From the IMG/VR virus record IMGVR_UViG_3300021493_000001: a DNA stretch of 64,000 nucleotides; one strand, written 5' to 3'. The notes under the pieces are model-generated. The model did no database searches. It was not told the DNA's origin and was given only the letters and a program-made list of their open reading frames with translations. Shown here piece by piece: positions 53,590 to 57,768 of this stretch (positions are counted from its first letter, which is position 1; every line of letters begins with the position of its first letter). A program made the position numbers and the translations under genes. Origin of the DNA: a virus.

Positions 53590-54147
53590 CTATTCATTGC
53601 ATACCCAGCTTTTAATCGTTCTCTCGTTGCCCAAAAAATTTATTTTTATATTATTCAATGCCCATTGATTAACAGCTATTGCTCCTAAAGAAGCAACAAG
53701 GCAAATAAAAGCCTTTGCACCACGCCAAGTGCAAATATCAAATCCGTCTTGTGCTTTTTCAGGTTTAAATTCTTTATCCCAAACTACCTCAAATGTTCTT
53801 TCTGCCGAATAGGCTATATGAATGGCATGAGGGCAAGATATTAAGGCTCGGCTTTCAGCATTATCAAAACAATCCAAGCAAAGGTCAAATTGGTCTAATG
53901 CTGGTTTTGTATCAATTTTAAGTTTTTGAGCTTGAGTAATTATTCCATATTGGTCATATAAATTGAGCTGTAAGGCTTCACTTTTATACAATCCTATTTG
54001 AGAAGGTCTAAACCATTGATTAGGAATATTCCTAGTTTCAACTTTATCATAATCAAATAGATAGTATCCCCAATCTGGATGAGCACCAACCAAAATATAA
54101 GCTAAATTGCTACCCAATGCACCACAGCCAAAAATAGCTATTTTCAT
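53590..54147 (-). CDS. ThiF/MoeB/E1-like adenylyltransferase
   Basis: GCGALG, DYDKVETRNIPNQ, K and DCFDNAESR; candidate catalytic Cys in FDICT; start moved to ATG 54147 behind GAGGT. Confidence 0.9.
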   Translation of the reverse strand: MKIAIFGCGALGSNLAYILVGAHPDWGYYLFDYDKVETRNIPNQWFRPSQIGLYKSEALQLNLYDQYGIITQAQKLKIDTKPALDQFDLCLDCFDNAESRALISCPHAIHIAYSAERTFEVVWDKEFKPEKAQDGFDICTWRGAKAFICLVASLGAIAVNQWALNNIKINFLGNERTIKSWVCNE

Positions 54148-54149
54148 TT

Positions 54150-54581
54150 TTACCTCACTACATAATCTAAATGAAAGCACATTTTCAATCCCTTACAAAG
54201 TGGCTCTTGAAATTCGGGAGAAGGCAAAATTACATTTTTTAAATAGTCTCCAAAAATATCATACACACCAGTAAATATAGAACCTTCATACTTAAAAACA
54301 AAATCTCCAGATTTAGGTTGATATACAGTAAAGAGTGAATGATGAGGTGCAAATGCTAATTCAAGTGCTTCATAAAATTCATTGTCTATATTACTCAGAC
54401 TAACTCCTATTTCAGACGAATGAGTATGAATTACAATCCAGTCTTGGGGATAGAGTTGATGCAGTTTCCACCATTCTAAAAAATCAAATTTTACAGAGGC
54501 ACTATTGCCAATTTTAATTTGGACAAAATTCCTAAACGCCCCTTCAGTGCCTAAAATTACACCTACTTCTTTAAATGCCAT
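54150..54581 (-). CDS. JAB/MPN+ metallopeptidase
   Basis: N-terminal Glu (FKEVG) and JAMM motif HTH-x8-SNID. Confidence 0.75.
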   Translation of the reverse strand: MAFKEVGVILGTEGAFRNFVQIKIGNSASVKFDFLEWWKLHQLYPQDWIVIHTHSSEIGVSLSNIDNEFYEALELAFAPHHSLFTVYQPKSGDFVFKYEGSIFTGVYDIFGDYLKNVILPSPEFQEPLCKGLKMCFHLDYVVR

Positions 54582-54807
54582 ATTTATTCCTCATTCTATA
54601 TTGTAATTTATTAAACCTTTTCATATAATTATCCCAACATTTAAGCCATAACTTTTGCAAGCCCAACCATTGACAATCAATAATACCCAAAGATAAAATA
54701 CAAGGTAAATCTTCTAAAACTATAACCATTGTAGATACTAAAAACCAGAAAGCTAATTGTAAATCAAGATGAATAATGAAATTTTTAGTTTCTATTATCC
54801 GTTTCAT
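54571..54807 (-). CDS. small hypothetical protein within the Ubl operon
   Basis: fills the gap exactly between flanking genes. Confidence 0.4.
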   Translation of the reverse strand: MKRIIETKNFIIHLDLQLAFWFLVSTMVIVLEDLPCILSLGIIDCQWLGLQKLWLKCWDNYMKRFNKLQYRMRNKYGI

Positions 54808-55683
54808 TTAAAATCGTGTTTTATAAATTAAATCCTTCTCAATAAATTCTTGAGCTGTTAATACCATGCTTTTAAGAGATAAAATATTGTCCATGCCTTC
54901 CACACAGAATCCTGCTTCTTTTATCTGGAAGTTATTAGGATTGATTAAGCTGTTAAATTTTTCTCCTTGCACAGACCAGATAATTTCTAAGTTATTTCCA
55001 CGCTGTTTCAGCTCAATTAAATGGCCATTTACTTCTTCTAATGCAGATTTAACCCGTCCTACCAAAGTTTTCTTAAATTCTTCTTCTTTTTGGGCTTTTA
55101 GCAATTCTTGTTGAGTTTTATATTCTAATACATACAGAAAATATAAATACCTTAACTCAGGAGTTAATCCTTTTATATCTATAATGGGCTTATCTATATC
55201 TAAATATTGTTTAGTTATAAATTTATCTTTTAATTTAATTAAAAGCGGATTGCTTGGATATTCCCAGCCGTAAAAAAACATTACCTTGGCTGGGGTTGCA
55301 ATTGGAATAATTGCATAAGACTGCCAGTCTAAATCTGTGCGTAATAAATGAAGTGGCTGGGAAGAATTAGTTGTTATATCCCATTTCGTTTTAAGCAAAT
55401 TGAATGAATAAGGCACAAATTCATTATGAAACCCATATCCTGTAAATGCTCTATTTTGATAAATAAGCTTTACATCCAAGACTGAAGCTTGAGTTATTTC
55501 TACATTGCCTTTACACATTTCAATCCAATACCAGCCATCATTCCAATTTCTTGCTCGTAAATATTTAGAAATATCTAGGGTATAAATATCGCTGTAAGCT
55601 ACTCCATTTAATACAGGTGCTAGAAACTTCATTTTTTCTTCATAAATTGACCTGATAGTTTTAAGAATTTTACTATATTGCAT
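54808..55683 (-). CDS. uncharacterised protein with C-terminal AGFCVEGMD motif (E2-like candidate)
   Basis: coupled to the vWA gene; G-x-C-hydrophobic motif reminiscent of the E2 GxICL. Confidence 0.55.
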   Translation of the reverse strand: MQYSKILKTIRSIYEEKMKFLAPVLNGVAYSDIYTLDISKYLRARNWNDGWYWIEMCKGNVEITQASVLDVKLIYQNRAFTGYGFHNEFVPYSFNLLKTKWDITTNSSQPLHLLRTDLDWQSYAIIPIATPAKVMFFYGWEYPSNPLLIKLKDKFITKQYLDIDKPIIDIKGLTPELRYLYFLYVLEYKTQQELLKAQKEEEFKKTLVGRVKSALEEVNGHLIELKQRGNNLEIIWSVQGEKFNSLINPNNFQIKEAGFCVEGMDNILSLKSMVLTAQEFIEKDLIYKTRF

Positions 55684-57226
55684 AATACCACTCTGGCAGT
55701 GTTAATAAGGGTGTGTTCATGATTTCTTCTATAATAGCCATTTGCCCTTTCATAGCAACCTTAATAGCTTCCATGACTAAAGCTGAATTGGTAACCGTTT
55801 CATAACTTAAAACAGATACAGGAATTCCATTATCTTTATAAGCTATTTCTAATTGATTACCTCGTCCAAAACCAGGATAATCACACCAACAATCTATAAT
55901 TACACAAGCTTTGGGCTTATCTTTATAGTCTTTAATTTTCTGTGTAAGATTCCCCATATTATGACCTTCTACCAGTTCTGTGATAAATATATCCACATCC
56001 GCCCCAAACTTTCTTGCTTCAGGATATAAGGCAAAACAATCAGTAGCCCCATACGGTCTAATTCCAAATAAGATTTGTGCAAAAGCATCTTCTACAAATT
56101 CATTAGGCAGAGGTAAAACCTTACCATAAACATTAAAAACGCCCCATCTAAAATTTTCTTCAGGATTAGATACCATTTCTGCAACTAACGGTGCAACCTT
56201 TTTAGCAACCCTAATCGCATCTTCCATACTTCCAGATATATCAATATGAAGGAATACTTTACCTATTTCTGCCTTTTCAAAATCTTCTTTATGAACCTTA
56301 GCTCTAGCTTTCTTCATTGAAGACTTCAGTTTAGAAGAAATCTTTTTAACTCTAGTAACCCTATCTACAGCAGTGCGAGATTGTGAAATCTTTTTTTCAT
56401 ATAATTTTTTAATTTCTTTATAAGCCCATAACCCTTTATCTTCAAATAACTTACTTAAAATTAACACTTCATCAGGGTTAGCCACATATAACAAAGCAAT
56501 TGCAATTTCAGGTGTTACTTCAGGAATTGCACCCAAGGCTCTTTGAACCTTGATTTTCTCTTTAATAATTCTTTCTGCAATTTCTTTGGTAGTTAACCCA
56601 TCAAAATTTAAGCCTTCTTCAATTTTTACAGGGGTAGTTTTTTGTTTCCATCTAAGGATGGATGCAGTTTCAGGAGAAGGTGCAAGGTGCATTAAACGGT
56701 AAAGGTTTATATAAGTTTTAGATAATCCCTTATTCTTAATGCCTCTGATATAAAACGGGTTTTTCTCTCTATATTTAATATATTTTTTTACAGCAGTATT
56801 CAAAACAACAGGCCAATGCCTTGCATAAGGAAGGCCATTCGTCCCCCATTTAAGACACCCTAATTGTTTAACTCTAAGCACAAGTCTAGGTTCAAGCTCT
56901 TGAATTGCAGCAGCACTTACTATTCTAAAATTAGGCTTCCTATATTTTGAATTAGGTGAAAAAGGCAGTCCATCTGCAATAGACAAGGCATTTGAATAGG
57001 TTGTAAAGACTTTAAGGTCTTTTGATTGACTGTTTTTGATAATCCAAGAAGTGAAATGAGCTAGAAACACTGAGTCATTTTGAGATATATTATAAAACTG
57101 CTTGAGAATATTTAGAGCTTTATCTTGGTTTAACTTACCTTTCTGCCATAGGTGTTGGCAACCCTGAATAAGTAAGTTATATGCATTTAACCTTTCTTCT
57201 GGTAAAAGAGAAGGTAGCTCCTTCAT
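55673..57226 (-). CDS. TROVE/Ro60-like helical protein with C-terminal vWA domain
   Basis: MIDAS IDISGSM, GATD and IFITE; long helical N-terminus (DSVFLAHF...KDLKVF); start at ATG 57226 behind GGAGG. Confidence 0.7.
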   Translation of the reverse strand: MKELPSLLPEERLNAYNLLIQGCQHLWQKGKLNQDKALNILKQFYNISQNDSVFLAHFTSWIIKNSQSKDLKVFTTYSNALSIADGLPFSPNSKYRKPNFRIVSAAAIQELEPRLVLRVKQLGCLKWGTNGLPYARHWPVVLNTAVKKYIKYREKNPFYIRGIKNKGLSKTYINLYRLMHLAPSPETASILRWKQKTTPVKIEEGLNFDGLTTKEIAERIIKEKIKVQRALGAIPEVTPEIAIALLYVANPDEVLILSKLFEDKGLWAYKEIKKLYEKKISQSRTAVDRVTRVKKISSKLKSSMKKARAKVHKEDFEKAEIGKVFLHIDISGSMEDAIRVAKKVAPLVAEMVSNPEENFRWGVFNVYGKVLPLPNEFVEDAFAQILFGIRPYGATDCFALYPEARKFGADVDIFITELVEGHNMGNLTQKIKDYKDKPKACVIIDCWCDYPGFGRGNQLEIAYKDNGIPVSVLSYETVTNSALVMEAIKVAMKGQMAIIEEIMNTPLLTLPEWYYAI

Positions 57227-57276
57227 TTGAGCCTCCAAAATTTTATATTTAAGCTCCTAAGTTGCAGGAATTGTTT

Positions 57277-57352
57277 TGGCCAGCTAAACGGGACTTGAAC
57301 CCGTAACCATCAGCTTTTGGAGCTGATGCCTATCCAATTGGGCGATTAGCTT
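57277..57352 (-). tRNA. atypical 76-nt tRNA-like RNA (Trp-like body, anticodon register ambiguous CCA/CAA)
   Basis: acceptor AAGCTAA/TTAGCTG, G73 and encoded CCA; D loop AATTGG; anticodon stem TCAGC/GCTGA with loop TCCAAAA; T arm ACGGG-TTCAAGT-CCCGT. Confidence 0.8.
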
Positions 57353-57391
57353 GTAAATTCCTGCATTAGAGGAGCTTGTTGTTATCAAAAC

Positions 57392-57482
57392 GACTCCTAA
57401 GTGAGAAGAACTCCTAGAGTGGGCTAGGCCCCATTCCTGATTCCACATATCAGGTGCTTGTAAGTTCTTCTCAAGAGGAGTC
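57392..57482 (-). ncRNA. 91-nt three-way-junction structure
   Basis: GACTCCT/AGGAGTC and TGAGAAGAACT/AGTTCTTCTCA closing stems; inner hairpins CCTGAT/ATCAGG and CCTAG/CTAGG. Confidence 0.55.
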
Positions 57483-57713
57483 ATACAATCCCGCCTCTGC
57501 TTTAGGTAAAATATAAATTGTATCTGTATCCGTCATTTTTCTTACCGTATAAATGTAGCCTTCAGTATCAGCCTCAATATTAACTCCTGTTTCTTCCAAA
57601 ATAACAGGGGCACATGCTTTAAGTATTTCAGTTTCAGGTGTATCCATTGTAATGCCCATTTGTTGAGCATCCAAAGGAACTTCCTTACTTTCTAAAAGGA
57701 CTTTGATTTCCAT
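57471..57713 (-). CDS. ubiquitin-like (beta-grasp) protein with PKAEAG plus LYDSS tail
   Basis: 80 aa; beta-grasp-like pattern ending TIYILPKAEAG; heads the E1/JAB operon. Confidence 0.65.
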   Translation of the reverse strand: MEIKVLLESKEVPLDAQQMGITMDTPETEILKACAPVILEETGVNIEADTEGYIYTVRKMTDTDTIYILPKAEAGLYDSS

Positions 57714-57739: not shown

Positions 57740-57768
57740 ATAATAAAACAAGTAATTTATTTTGTCAA
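57740..57768 (-). promoter_or_regulatory. strong sigma70-type promoter of the Ubl operon
   Basis: TTGACA (57768-63), N17, TATTAT (57745-40), then GGAGG and ATG 57713. Confidence 0.75.

What the first reader, a model, noticed from the sequence alone, without database searches (positions are those of the whole stretch)
55673..57377. Ro60-like gene preceded by a tRNA mimic held in a long closing stem (Y-RNA-like architecture)
Seen: the tRNA-like unit is flanked by an inverted repeat. AAGCTCC-N5-TGCAGGAATT (57251-57272) pairs with AATTCCTGCA-N5-GGAGCTT (57356-57377), so leader and trailer form a 17-bp helix with an internal loop below the acceptor stem, directly upstream of the TROVE/vWA gene. 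Known: bacterial Ro60 (Rsr) binds Y RNAs made of a long 5'/3' stem plus a tRNA-like domain and encoded next to ro. The canonical Ro-binding sequence is not evident here. Inference: a divergent phage Ro60/Y-like RNP linked to the Ubl system.
Basis: partly seen in the sequence, partly recalled or inferred. Interest (0 to 1): 0.8.

Follow-up and report, generated by a model that had tools for sequence, protein, structure and literature searches.

The report
Phage Ro60-like protein with new Y-like RNAs
An uncultured phage encodes a very divergent relative of the RNA-binding ring protein Ro60 and, just upstream, two small structured RNAs (one a tRNA look-alike) of a new family, all inside a ubiquitin-like gene cassette, a link I found in no paper.

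Summary
The tRNA-like unit (57277-57352, minus strand) sits inside an 8-bp plus 10-bp closing helix with an internal loop.

The 517-aa gene (55673-57226, minus strand) matches no Pfam, PHROG or NCBIfam model, but its predicted fold matches Ro60. Its N-terminal domain alone ranks the three Ro60 structures first among 48,161 chains. The C-terminal vWA domain has an intact MIDAS site.

The closing helix is not a local accident. It is a conserved module:
- a covarying lower stem;
- an internal loop (5' C-N-N-N, 3' ACUU);
- a covarying 10-bp upper stem;
- an invariant (U)ACAAGC junction.

I found 75 non-redundant copies in 39 loci, always on the strand of a homologous Ro60-like gene, and none in a reversed-sequence control. 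The window holds two copies, and the second (57392-57482) has a non-tRNA core. Cores elsewhere are tRNA mimics in normal or circularly permuted order. Their anticodons look random.

The canonical Ro-binding motif is absent, and Rfam YrlA matches only below threshold.

The genes lie in a conserved operon: Ubl, RNAs, Ro60-like, cysteine protein, JAB, E1. In some phages the Ubl is fused to the Ro60-like protein.

Binding of the RNAs by the protein is inferred, not shown. This scan has already noted the same system on other DNA; I found no paper describing it.

The parts
57740..57768 (-). Sigma-70-like promoter (TTGACA, 17 nt, TATTAT) ahead of the Ubl gene. It is the likely start of the operon transcript that carries both RNAs.
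   Evidence: 11 of 12 consensus positions. This is a consensus match only. No terminator-like site with a U run separates it from the Ro60-like gene.
57471..57713 (-). Small ubiquitin-like protein, 80 aa. The conserved end is ...PKAEAG, followed by a 5-residue tail (LYDSS) whose codons form the 5' strand of RNA unit A.
   Evidence: homologues lie upstream of the Ro60-like gene in about 65 loci. The C-terminal Gly is invariant and about half of the proteins end exactly at it; it is fused to the Ro60-like protein in 6 loci. The beta-grasp fold was not tested.
57392..57482 (-). RNA unit A. It has the same closing module (7-bp lower stem, loop CUUG / CACUU, 10-bp upper stem, ACAAGC junction) around a 42-nt core of two small hairpins. 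The core is not tRNA-like.
   Evidence: descriptor scan. MFE -40.8 kcal/mol, z -4.4. Homologous units occur in L001, L002, L011, L013 and L014.
57252..57376 (-). RNA unit B: the closing module around a tRNA mimic. The covariance model places it at 57249-57379.
   Evidence: model R1 scores 123 bits, E 5e-27, and this is its only hit in the 64-kb window.
57370..57377 (-). Unit B lower stem, 5' strand (AAGCUCCU). It pairs with 57251-57258.
57251..57258 (-). Unit B lower stem, 3' strand (AGGAGCUU).
57356..57365 (-). Unit B upper stem, 5' strand (UGCAGGAAUU). It pairs with 57263-57272.
57263..57272 (-). Unit B upper stem, 3' strand (AAUUCCUGCA).
57259..57262 (-). ACUU, the 3' side of the internal loop and a family signature. 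It lies opposite CUAA at 57366-57369.
   Evidence: CUU is invariant in alignment A5. ACUU, with or without one extra base, occurs in 58 of 75 non-redundant units.
57349..57355 (-). Junction UACAAGC, a family signature. Its last G and C start the acceptor-like stem.
   Evidence: ACAAGC is exact in 67 of 75 units.
57277..57352 (-). tRNA mimic, 76 nt, with an encoded CCA. It has an A1-G72 mismatch, C at position 33, a possible 8-bp anticodon stem with a 5-nt loop, and a Leu anticodon (CAA) on a short-variable-arm body.
55673..57226 (-). Ro60-like protein, 517 aa. The N-terminal TROVE-like helical domain spans about residues 1-320. The C-terminal vWA domain carries MIDAS residues D329, S331, S333 and T395.
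54808..55683 (-). Conserved 291-aa protein of unknown fold with one invariant cysteine (C260, in AGFCxxG).
   Evidence: present in 46 loci. No match in Pfam, NCBIfam, PDB or the ESM Atlas.
54150..54581 (-). JAB/JAMM metallopeptidase, 143 aa.
   Evidence: E5, H52, H54, S63 and D66 are invariant; the top PDB profile matches are AMSH-like, STAMBP, Rpn11-like and BubCD. Present in 37 loci.
53590..54180 (-). ThiF/E1-like adenylating enzyme, 196 aa.
   Evidence: Pfam ThiF E 1.2e-11, and NCBIfam ThiF and PRTRC ThiF models. Present in 16 loci.

Best explanation
The 517-aa gene encodes a highly divergent phage homologue of Ro60: a TROVE-type helical ring domain followed by a vWA domain with an intact metal site. 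Directly upstream, on the same transcript, lie two small RNAs of a previously undescribed Y-RNA-like family. Each RNA has two parts.

1. A conserved closing module made by the 5' and 3' ends. It consists of a lower stem, an internal loop with C on the 5' side and ACUU on the 3' side, a 10-bp upper stem, and a (U)ACAAGC junction.
2. A variable core. In unit B the core is a tRNA mimic; in unit A it is two small hairpins.

I infer that the module is the docking site for the Ro60-like protein, playing the part of the bulged helix of Y RNAs. The 10-bp upper stem is one helical turn, so the two invariant single-stranded motifs lie on one face of the helix. I infer that the variable core is the effector end, presenting a tRNA shape to some tRNA-binding host or phage factor. 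I also infer that the RNAs are cut out of the operon transcript.

Shown here: the Ro60 fold, the RNA structure and its covariation, the strict genetic coupling, and the operon context.

Inferred: binding, processing, and what the particle does. The operon also encodes a ubiquitin-like protein, a JAB peptidase, an E1-like enzyme and a cysteine protein. Because the Ubl is fused to the Ro60-like protein in some phages, the particle probably works with, or is controlled by, that tagging module.
For: Protein
- The AlphaFold model has pLDDT 86.9.
- The 13 best Foldseek PDB matches are all Ro60/TROVE structures aligned over the full length, including Thermus phage phiLo Ro60 (E 5e-9 to 1e-5).
- VIA-align gives Z 14-16 over about 425 residues.
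- The N-terminal 320 residues folded alone (pLDDT 85) rank Deinococcus Rsr (Z 12.5, 271 aa), Xenopus Ro60 (Z 11.9, 283 aa) and phiLo Ro60 (Z 11.7, 256 aa) first among 48,161 chains. The next match has Z 8.3 over about 100 aa.
- The family profile finds human Ro60 as the best PDB sequence (E 1.2e-5).
- MIDAS residues are invariant, and 9 of 66 distant relatives hit Pfam vWA_Ro60.

RNA
- The fold has z -5.3.
- All 18 of 18 closing-stem pairs covary.
- The descriptor scan found 58 units. All 56 in the loci are on the gene strand, and the reversed-sequence control gave 0.
- The covariance model found 137 matches at E <= 0.01, all on the gene strand.
- There are 75 non-redundant units in 39 loci, at a median of 559 nt from the gene.
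- In a reverse test, an RNA pattern was searched in IMG/VR. 5 of 65 hits passed the stem filter and all 5 carry the gene. 59 of the other 60 do not.
- Among phages with 94-96% identical protein, the module is invariant while the tRNA core and anticodon differ.

Mimic rather than decoder
- 8 of 36 called anticodons are Leu, Ser or Tyr on short-arm bodies. 2 are stop anticodons. 4 have A34 outside Arg. 12 of 50 units are not called as tRNA at all.
- 18 cores are circularly permuted (T arm, closed 7-bp acceptor hairpin, D arm), and 27 of 30 predicted pairs are compensatory.
- The module also encloses non-tRNA cores.

Precedent
- Bacterial and phage Y RNAs lie within 4 kb of Ro60 on the same strand and mimic tRNA (PMC4201824).
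- phiLo Ro60 binds two upstream Y-like RNAs (PMC12135203).
Against: - No experiment or read data shows that the RNAs accumulate or bind the protein.
- The canonical Ro-binding motif (GGUCCGA, or GNCGAAN0-1G) is absent from both window units.
- Rfam Y_RNA and YrlA do not match the window. They match relatives only below threshold (27-32 bits against a gathering score of 69).
- Pfam TROVE does not match the protein, and Foldseek on the N-terminal domain alone is weak (E 0.01, TM 0.5).
- The co-occurrence evidence cannot separate the Ro60-like protein from the other four conserved operon proteins as the RNA's partner.
- Unit B keeps a full cloverleaf and an encoded CCA, so release of a tRNA-sized species is possible.
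Confidence: 0.6

Rival explanations
1. The RNAs belong to the ubiquitin-like arm of the operon rather than to the Ro60-like protein. The module or the tRNA-like end would be recognised by the E1-like enzyme, the JAB peptidase or the cysteine protein. Examples are sulfur transfer from a thiocarboxylated Ubl to a tRNA-like T loop, as in Thermus TtuB/TtuC, or acyl transfer of the activated Ubl to a CCA end. The Ro60-like protein would then have another role.
For: The Ubl, JAB, E1-like and cysteine-protein genes are as conserved around the RNAs as the Ro60-like gene. The RNA units sit at varying intergenic positions inside this operon. About 10 of 50 standard-order units encode NCCA. Ubl, E1 and JAB triads are known sulfur-carrier systems (established knowledge of ThiS/MoaD/TtuB-type systems; not tested here).
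Against: The only protein of the operon with a known RNA-binding fold and a precedent for adjacent tRNA-like RNAs is the Ro60-like one (PMC4201824). Most units lack CCA, and many have a closed acceptor hairpin. No PP-loop or other tRNA-thiolation enzyme signature was found in the 291-aa protein.
Confidence: 0.15
2. Unit B is simply the precursor of a working phage tRNA. The closing helix is a leader-trailer processing stem, cut for example by RNase III or a phage enzyme, that releases a 76-nt decoder.
For: Rfam scores it as tRNA at 48 bits, with all tertiary-interaction nucleotides, and CCA is encoded. The family's anticodons cover many amino acids and include suppressor-type anticodons. Ordinary tRNA arrays lie nearby in some relatives.
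Against: In the window the anticodon loop has C33 and can close to a 5-nt loop. There is an A1-G72 mismatch, and a Leu anticodon sits on a short-arm body. Near-identical phages have different anticodons, one of them undeterminable, while the stem is invariant. The same module encloses non-tRNA cores and permuted cores with closed acceptor hairpins, which cannot yield a tRNA. Ordinary tRNAs in the same contigs lack the module.
Confidence: 0.1
3. The module is a selfish or mobile insertion (MITE-like or intron-like, perhaps spread by the neighbouring HNH endonucleases) that has colonised tRNA genes. It would have no function with the Ro60-like protein.
For: The module occurs at three different positions relative to the tRNA scaffold: around it, at the variable loop of permuted forms, and as a hairpin between the D and anticodon arms. 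HNH endonuclease genes lie beside the RNA arrays in 20 loci.
Against: Stem sequences differ in almost every copy yet stay paired, which shows selection on RNA structure rather than on a mobile DNA sequence. Every copy is on the operon strand. There are no copies elsewhere in the 64-kb window, nor in viral contigs that lack the gene.
Confidence: 0.07
4. The structures act in cis on the operon mRNA, as processing, stability or translational control elements, and are not stable trans-acting RNAs.
For: They are probably co-transcribed with the flanking genes, with one promoter-like site upstream and no intervening terminator. Unit A overlaps the last codons and stop codon of the Ubl gene.
Against: Units occur in arrays of up to 7-8 and up to 2 kb or more from the gene, upstream or downstream. 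Elaborate tRNA mimicry is unnecessary for a cis element.
Confidence: 0.05

Closest known systems
Deinococcus radiodurans Rsr with Yrn1 Y RNA (PMC4201824)
   Same: A Ro60 ring protein with an adjacent same-strand RNA. The RNA's 5' and 3' ends form the long protein-binding stem. Its other end resembles a tRNA in normal D, anticodon, T order, so the long stem takes the place below the acceptor stem, as in window unit B.
   Different: Yrn1 keeps the metazoan-type Ro-binding helix, which is absent here. Yrn1 has only partial D-arm features, whereas unit B is a full cloverleaf with CCA. The protein here is too divergent for the Pfam TROVE model. There is no Ubl/JAB/E1 operon in Deinococcus.
Salmonella and Mycobacterium Rsr with YrlA (Rfam RF02553; PMC4201824), including mycobacteriophage versions
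   Same: A tRNA-mimicking Y RNA encoded within 4 kb of Ro60 on the same strand. The permuted relatives of the window RNA share the order T arm, closed acceptor stem-loop, D arm, and score weakly with the YrlA model (27-32 bits).
   Different: The GNCGAAN0-1G motif is absent. The matches are below the gathering score of 69. The permuted forms here keep an anticodon arm and attach the closing stem at the variable-loop position. The window's own unit is not permuted.
Thermus phage phiLo Ro60 with Yrl1/Yrl2 (PMC12135203; PDB 9KOP, 9L5Y)
   Same: A phage-encoded Ro60 with two Y-like RNAs just upstream of the gene. It is the best structural match to the window protein (Foldseek E 5e-9; Z 15.8).
   Different: Sequence identity is 12-15%. 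The phiLo RNAs carry the CGAA motif and are not described there as tRNA cloverleaves; the paper's text mentions tRNA only twice, in reference titles. No Ubl cassette is reported there.
Prokaryotic Ubl, E1 and JAB systems (ThiS/MoaD-type carriers, Thermus TtuB/TtuC, Bil/Bub and CBASS Cap2/Cap3 conjugation systems)
   Same: A small protein ending in Gly, a JAMM peptidase with the full catalytic set, and a ThiF-type adenylating enzyme in one operon.
   Different: None of these is known to me, or appeared in the searched papers, together with a Ro60-like protein or tRNA-like RNAs. No recognisable E2 is present.

Membership tests
Ro60 / TROVE proteins | N-terminal HEAT-like helical domain with the Ro60 (TROVE) fold | tested here: met
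   Residues 1-320 folded alone give Ro60 structures as the top 3 of 48,161 chains: Z 12.5, 11.9 and 11.7 over 256-283 aa. The next match has Z 8.3 over about 100 aa. The full-length model aligns only to Ro60 structures over its whole length.
Ro60 / TROVE proteins | Match to the Pfam TROVE model (PF05731) or another curated family model | tested here: not met
   There is no Pfam hit at E <= 1 apart from a chance DUF, and no PHROG or NCBIfam hit. None of 66 distant relatives hits TROVE, though 9 hit vWA_Ro60 PF25045.
Ro60 / TROVE proteins | C-terminal vWA domain with a MIDAS metal site (DxSxS...T...D) | tested here: met
   D329, S331, S333 and T395 are invariant, and D412/D417 nearly so. vWA structures match at Z about 13. 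The family profile matches human Ro60 at E 1.2e-5 over residues 241-458.
Ro60 / TROVE proteins | Binds Y RNA on the outer ring surface and RNA 3' ends in the central hole | not testable with these tools
   This needs RIP, EMSA or a structure. The complex tool takes no RNA.
Y RNAs (Rfam Y_RNA RF00019, YrlA RF02553) | Encoded near the Ro60 gene on the same strand | tested here: met
   The two units lie 25 and 165 nt upstream of the ATG on the same strand. In relatives, all units are on the gene strand at a median of 559 nt.
Y RNAs (Rfam Y_RNA RF00019, YrlA RF02553) | 5' and 3' ends pair into a long stem with a bulge or internal loop; the other end is a variable module | tested here: met
Y RNAs (Rfam Y_RNA RF00019, YrlA RF02553) | Conserved Ro-binding sequence (GGUCCGA, or GNCGAAN0-1G) | tested here: not met
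   It is absent from both window units. The family's invariants are ACUU and (U)ACAAGC instead. 26 of 75 relatives have GUYC-C ... CUU-GRAC around the loop, a loose resemblance to GGUC-C ... UUGAC of human Y RNAs (the 3' ends of hY4 and hY5 were read from primers). The window units do not.
Y RNAs (Rfam Y_RNA RF00019, YrlA RF02553) | Score at or above the Rfam gathering threshold | tested here: not met
   There is no Y_RNA or YrlA match at E <= 10 in the window region. YrlA scores 27-32 bits against 69 on permuted relatives.
Functional (decoding) tRNA | Cloverleaf with conserved tertiary nucleotides | tested here: met
   Rfam tRNA scores 48.2 bits. The columns that appear to correspond to U8, A14, G18-G19, G53-U54-U55-C56 and A58 are conserved in A5. 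That mapping to tRNA numbering is my own reading of the conserved columns.
Functional (decoding) tRNA | Canonical 7-nt anticodon loop with U33, and a body that fits the anticodon's amino-acid class | tested here: not met
   The window unit has C33 and can form an 8-bp stem with a 5-nt loop. It carries Leu CAA on a short-variable-arm body and has an A1-G72 mismatch. Family-wide, 8 of 36 anticodons are Leu, Ser or Tyr on 73-78-nt bodies.
Functional (decoding) tRNA | Anticodon conserved among close relatives | tested here: not met
   The anticodon is CAA in the window, GUA in L001 and L011, and undeterminable in L002. These phages have 94-96% identical Ro60-like proteins and an identical closing module.

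The most novel reading that the evidence does not exclude
The operon encodes a single machine in which a Ro60-type ring, loaded with modular tRNA-mimic RNAs, is coupled to ubiquitin-like chemistry. The Ubl would be released from its tail, or from the Ro60-like protein itself, by the JAB peptidase and activated by the E1-like enzyme. It would then be attached to, or would regulate, the RNP or the factors that its tRNA mimics capture. This would be a direct link between RNA surveillance and protein tagging, used by phages during infection.
Probability: 0.25. Interest if true: 0.9.

Novelty: new variant of a known kind. Interest (0 to 1): 0.75.

Why it matters
Ro60 and its Y RNAs are conserved from bacteria to humans, yet what the variable end of a Y RNA does is known in only a few cases.

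- **A natural experiment.** This is a large phage family of Ro60-like proteins that sequence models miss. It has a new RNA partner family in which one fixed module is joined to tRNA mimics in at least two, probably three, different topologies, often in arrays.
- **The tRNA shape itself seems to be under selection.** Its anticodons look random.
- **A testable recognition site.** The module gives a clean, mutable candidate binding site for the protein.
- **A functional link not described before.** The conserved embedding in a Ubl, JAB and E1 operon, and the natural Ubl-Ro60-like fusions, point to a tie between an RNA particle and ubiquitin-like modification that I found in none of the papers searched.
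- **An annotation fix.** These units are currently called as odd tRNAs (Leu, Tyr, suppressor and so on) in phage genomes.

Tried and rejected
**Searches that found nothing**
- Pfam, PHROGs and NCBIfam on the 517-aa protein gave nothing useful.
- A single-sequence search against PDB sequences gave only a chance hit.
- tblastn against 50,697 GenBank phage records gave no match, so no cultured representative was found there.
- The ESM Atlas gave nothing for the 291-aa protein and only a weak JAB lead for the 143-aa protein. A profile of the 291-aa family against PDB gave no credible hit.
- Four searches for papers linking TROVE/Ro60 to Ubl, JAB or ThiF, or describing permuted tRNA-like RNAs in phages, found none. 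A fifth query failed on term length.

- The search for related loci with the broad alignment A1 failed for lack of a conserved stretch. It worked with A4.
- No whole genome is held for this window.

**Inconclusive tests**
- Complex prediction of the Ubl with the Ro60-like protein gave no verdict (score 0.00). I do not count it either way.
- Foldseek on the N-terminal domain alone was weak (E 0.01). VIA-align was then used to separate Ro60 from other helical repeats.
- The covariance model with default filters did not find unit A in the window. Unit A rests on the descriptor scan and on homologous units.

**Readings considered and rejected**
- That adjacent permuted units pair across units. In L038 the stems of neighbouring units are not complementary to each other, only within a unit (my check on the printed stems).
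- That removing the module would restore a canonical tRNA, as with an archaeal-type BHB intron. The lengths left behind would not give a normal variable loop or 26/27 junction. This is inference from the sequences.


Full report
**1. The observation**

The minus strand of 57249-57379 reads, 5' to 3', as follows:
- lower stem, 5' strand: AAGCUCCU
- loop: CUAA
- upper stem, 5' strand: UGCAGGAAUU
- junction: UACAAGC
- a 76-nt tRNA-like unit ending in CCA
- AAAC
- upper stem, 3' strand: AAUUCCUGCA
- loop: ACUU
- lower stem, 3' strand: AGGAGCUU

The lower helix has one more pair than stated, giving 8 + 10 bp.

ARAGORN calls 57277-57352 tRNA-Leu(CAA), and Rfam tRNA scores 48.2 bits. The stretch folds into the proposed shape with MFE -49 kcal/mol and z -5.3 against shuffles.

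As a tRNA the unit is odd:
- an A1-G72 mismatch;
- one broken D-stem pair;
- C instead of U at position 33;
- an anticodon arm that can zip into 8 bp with a 5-nt loop;
- a Leu anticodon on a body without the long variable arm.

**2. The protein**

The gene most likely starts at the ATG at 57226, behind GGAGG, and encodes 517 aa. Pfam, PHROGs, NCBIfam and a single-sequence PDB search give nothing.

It has about 75 close relatives (40-50% identity) in metagenomes, all unnamed. More distant relatives carry vWA models.

Structure evidence:
- An AlphaFold model built on 69 sequences has pLDDT 86.9.
- Its 13 best Foldseek matches in the PDB are all Ro60 structures aligned end to end. They are Thermus phage phiLo, Xenopus, human and Deinococcus Ro60 (E 5e-9 to 1e-5). 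VIA-align gives Z 14-16 over about 425 residues.
- A vWA domain alone already gives Z about 13, so I folded residues 1-320 separately (pLDDT 85). I compared that model with 48,161 representative chains.
- The three Ro60 representatives came first (Z 12.5, 11.9 and 11.7, covering 256-283 residues). The next match had Z 8.3 over about 100 residues. Foldseek alone was weak on this domain.

Sequence evidence:
- The family profile finds human Ro60 as the best PDB sequence (E 1.2e-5).
- The MIDAS residues D329, S331, S333 and T395 are invariant.

I conclude that the protein has the Ro60 architecture, although it fails the Pfam TROVE sequence test.

**3. The closing stem is a conserved module**

In two viral contigs with 94-95% identical protein, the closing stem, its loops and the junction are identical to the window. 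The enclosed tRNA-like core differs at many positions and carries a different or undeterminable anticodon.

Reading the upstream regions of more distant loci showed the same design with completely different stem sequences. The design is a 7-8-bp lower stem, an internal loop with C first on the 5' side and ACUU on the 3' side, a 10-bp upper stem, and (U/C)ACAAGC.

Counts:
- A descriptor scan over the 91 loci then held and the window found 58 units. All 56 in the loci are on the strand of the Ro60-like gene. The same sequences reversed gave none.
- On an alignment of 21 units, all 18 closing-stem pairs change on both sides with pairing kept. Covariation is 0.70, against 0.23 in shuffles and at most 0.21 in slid controls.
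- A covariance model built from that alignment hits the window once (123 bits). It gives 137 matches in 82 loci, all on the gene strand. The matches to model positions 28-103 only are ordinary tRNAs without the module.
- After pooling and de-duplication there are 75 units in 39 loci.
- Of 28 distinct loci with at least 3 kb on both sides, 19 have a unit that passes the strict filter. Most of the other nine have divergent units or covariance-model matches.
- In the de-duplicated loci, 51 units are upstream and 17 downstream of the gene, at a median of 559 nt.

Module conservation:
- The 5' loop starts with C in 71 of 75 units.
- ACAAGC is exact in 67 of 75.
- The three lower-stem pairs next to the loop are pyrimidine-purine.

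**4. Reverse test**

I searched IMG/VR for an RNA-only pattern: TACAAGC, a gap, a T-loop, a gap, then ACTT. It gave 65 loci. Five passed the stem filter, and all five carry a Ro60-like gene on the same strand, including one contig not found through the protein. Of the other 60, 59 have no such gene. The module therefore appears specific to these operons.

**5. The window has two units**

Unit A (57392-57482, minus strand) has the same module around a 42-nt core of two hairpins. It folds with z -4.4. Its 5' strand overlaps the last codons and the stop codon of the upstream small gene.

A strong sigma-70-like site (11 of 12) lies at 57768-57740, and no terminator with a U run follows it. Both RNAs are therefore probably cut from the operon transcript. 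That processing is inferred.

**6. The cores are mimics, in several topologies**

Of the 75 units, 40 have a tRNA-like core in normal order, 18 in permuted order, 14 are not tRNA-like, and 3 are unclear.

RNAalifold on 18 permuted units predicts, without any guidance, the two closing stems, a T arm, a 7-bp acceptor-like hairpin closed by a loop, and a D arm. 27 of 30 predicted pairs are compensatory. An anticodon-like arm follows. The closing stem therefore leaves these mimics at the variable-loop position.

Rfam YrlA, which has the same T, acceptor stem-loop, D order, scores 27-32 bits on such units, well below its gathering score of 69.

Among 50 normal-order units:
- ARAGORN anticodons.
- Eight are Leu, Ser or Tyr on 73-78-nt bodies.
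- Two are stop anticodons.
- Four have A34 outside Arg.
- Twelve units are not called as tRNA at all.

Together with the anticodon turnover among near-identical phages, this argues that the anticodon is not selected for decoding, while the elbow nucleotides are conserved.

A third arrangement appears in some arrays: a tRNA-shaped RNA with free acceptor ends and the module as a hairpin between the D and anticodon arms. I saw it only by eye and by folding.

**7. Operon context**

Clustering the ORFs of all loci shows a conserved, co-oriented set.
- **Small protein, about 80 aa.** It is conserved upstream in about 65 loci. Its C-terminal Gly is invariant (...P-K/N-S-V/T-A-G). About half of the proteins end exactly there and the rest have short tails.
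- **Ro60-like protein.**
- **A protein of about 285 aa.** It has one invariant cysteine and no recognisable family.
- **JAB peptidase.** The full E, HxH, S, D set is invariant, and its best PDB profile matches are AMSH, Rpn11 and BubCD.
- **ThiF/E1-like enzyme**.

In at least six loci the small protein is fused to the N terminus of the Ro60-like protein, and the conserved AG sits one or two residues before the Ro60-like start. The RNA units sit at different intergenic positions of this operon in different phages. What the link does is unknown.

**8. Comparison with what is known**

Bacterial and phage Y RNAs are found within 4 kb of Ro60 on the same strand. They carry a Ro-binding motif near the 5' end (GNCGAAN0-1G, related to GGUCCGA of vertebrates) and mimic tRNA (PMC4201824). 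Thermus phage phiLo Ro60 binds two upstream Y-like RNAs with a CGAA motif and can engage host PNPase (PMC12135203).

The window system works like these in layout. It fails family membership on three counts: the binding motif, the Rfam scores and the Pfam TROVE model.

There is a loose resemblance at the loop. 26 of 75 units read GUYC-C on the 5' side and CUU-GRAC on the 3' side. Human Y RNAs read GGUC-C and UUGAC (primer sequences). The window's own units do not show this, and I treat it as a lead only.

No GenBank phage carries the protein, and no paper in the library links TROVE/Ro60 with Ubl, JAB or ThiF genes.

**9. Earlier notes of this scan**

The scan has already flagged this kind of operon on other DNA, with 42 notes in at least 33 genomes. 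Several follow-ups reached the same reading: a Ro60-like particle with tRNA-shaped RNAs joined to a Ubl module. One of them was later marked as partly fallen, without saying which part. These are unchecked AI notes. One note, which read an anticodon arm as replaced by an insert holding CATACAAGCAA, led me to look for the third topology.

**10. Verdict**

The best reading (0.6) is a new variant of the Ro60-Y RNA particle. In it, the conserved closing module is the protein's docking site and the tRNA mimic is the effector end.

The main uncertainty is which operon protein binds the RNAs, and what the particle and the Ubl module do together. Expression data could not be obtained.

Noticed in passing
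L039:3746-4150, L061:3734-4138, L041:939-1343, L077:3707-4171, L038:3641-4105, L082:822-1286: Natural fusions of the small Gly-ended ubiquitin-like protein to the N terminus of the Ro60-like protein. The conserved ...NSTAG sits one or two residues before the Ro60-like start. This looks like a cleavable precursor, as in ubiquitin-ribosomal protein fusions.
   Followed up: partly
L004:2845-2995, L008:2115-2262, L005:2320-2475, L048:2092-2240: A third topology: tRNA-shaped RNAs with free 7-bp acceptor ends (one with CCA). The module (ACUU or a variant, a lower stem closed by a loop, a C-loop, then ACAAGC) sits as a hairpin between the D arm and an anticodon-like arm. In L004 the 9-bp upper stem pairs; in L008 it does not obviously pair.
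   Followed up: partly
L037:115-1620: An array of seven to eight module units, mixing normal and permuted tRNA mimics, upstream of one Ro60-like gene. Rfam tRNA hits with long 'inserts' in such arrays span two neighbouring permuted units and are artefacts of the tandem arrangement.
   Followed up: partly
L009:1902-2206: A 536-kb viral contig whose vWA protein is only 24% identical to the window protein. It also has two upstream units with a variant module (ACACGA junction, ACUC loop), so the RNA-protein pairing extends to a distant branch.
   Followed up: partly
L004:3335-3922 and 19 other loci: An HNH endonuclease gene (Pfam HNH, E 3e-11) lies between the RNA array and the Ro60-like gene in about 20 loci. 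It is probably a homing endonuclease insertion.
   Followed up: partly
L004:7038-7859, L004:5586-6155, L036:2695-3276: Band 7/SPFH (8 loci), LemA and CoiA-type nuclease genes recur beside the operon in subsets of loci.
   Followed up: no
window 54582-54807: A 226-nt gap lies between the 291-aa gene and the JAB gene. The only ORF there (78 aa, Trp/Cys-rich) is not conserved in any other locus and is probably not a gene. Nothing else was identified in the gap.
   Followed up: no
window 57740-57768 (minus strand): A near-consensus sigma-70-type promoter (TTGACA, 17 nt, TATTAT) lies just upstream of the Ubl gene.
   Followed up: no
L038:7269-8084, L065:750-1950, L008:1-700: Ordinary tRNA gene arrays without the module, and in L008 a tmRNA, lie in the same contigs near the operon.
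   Followed up: no
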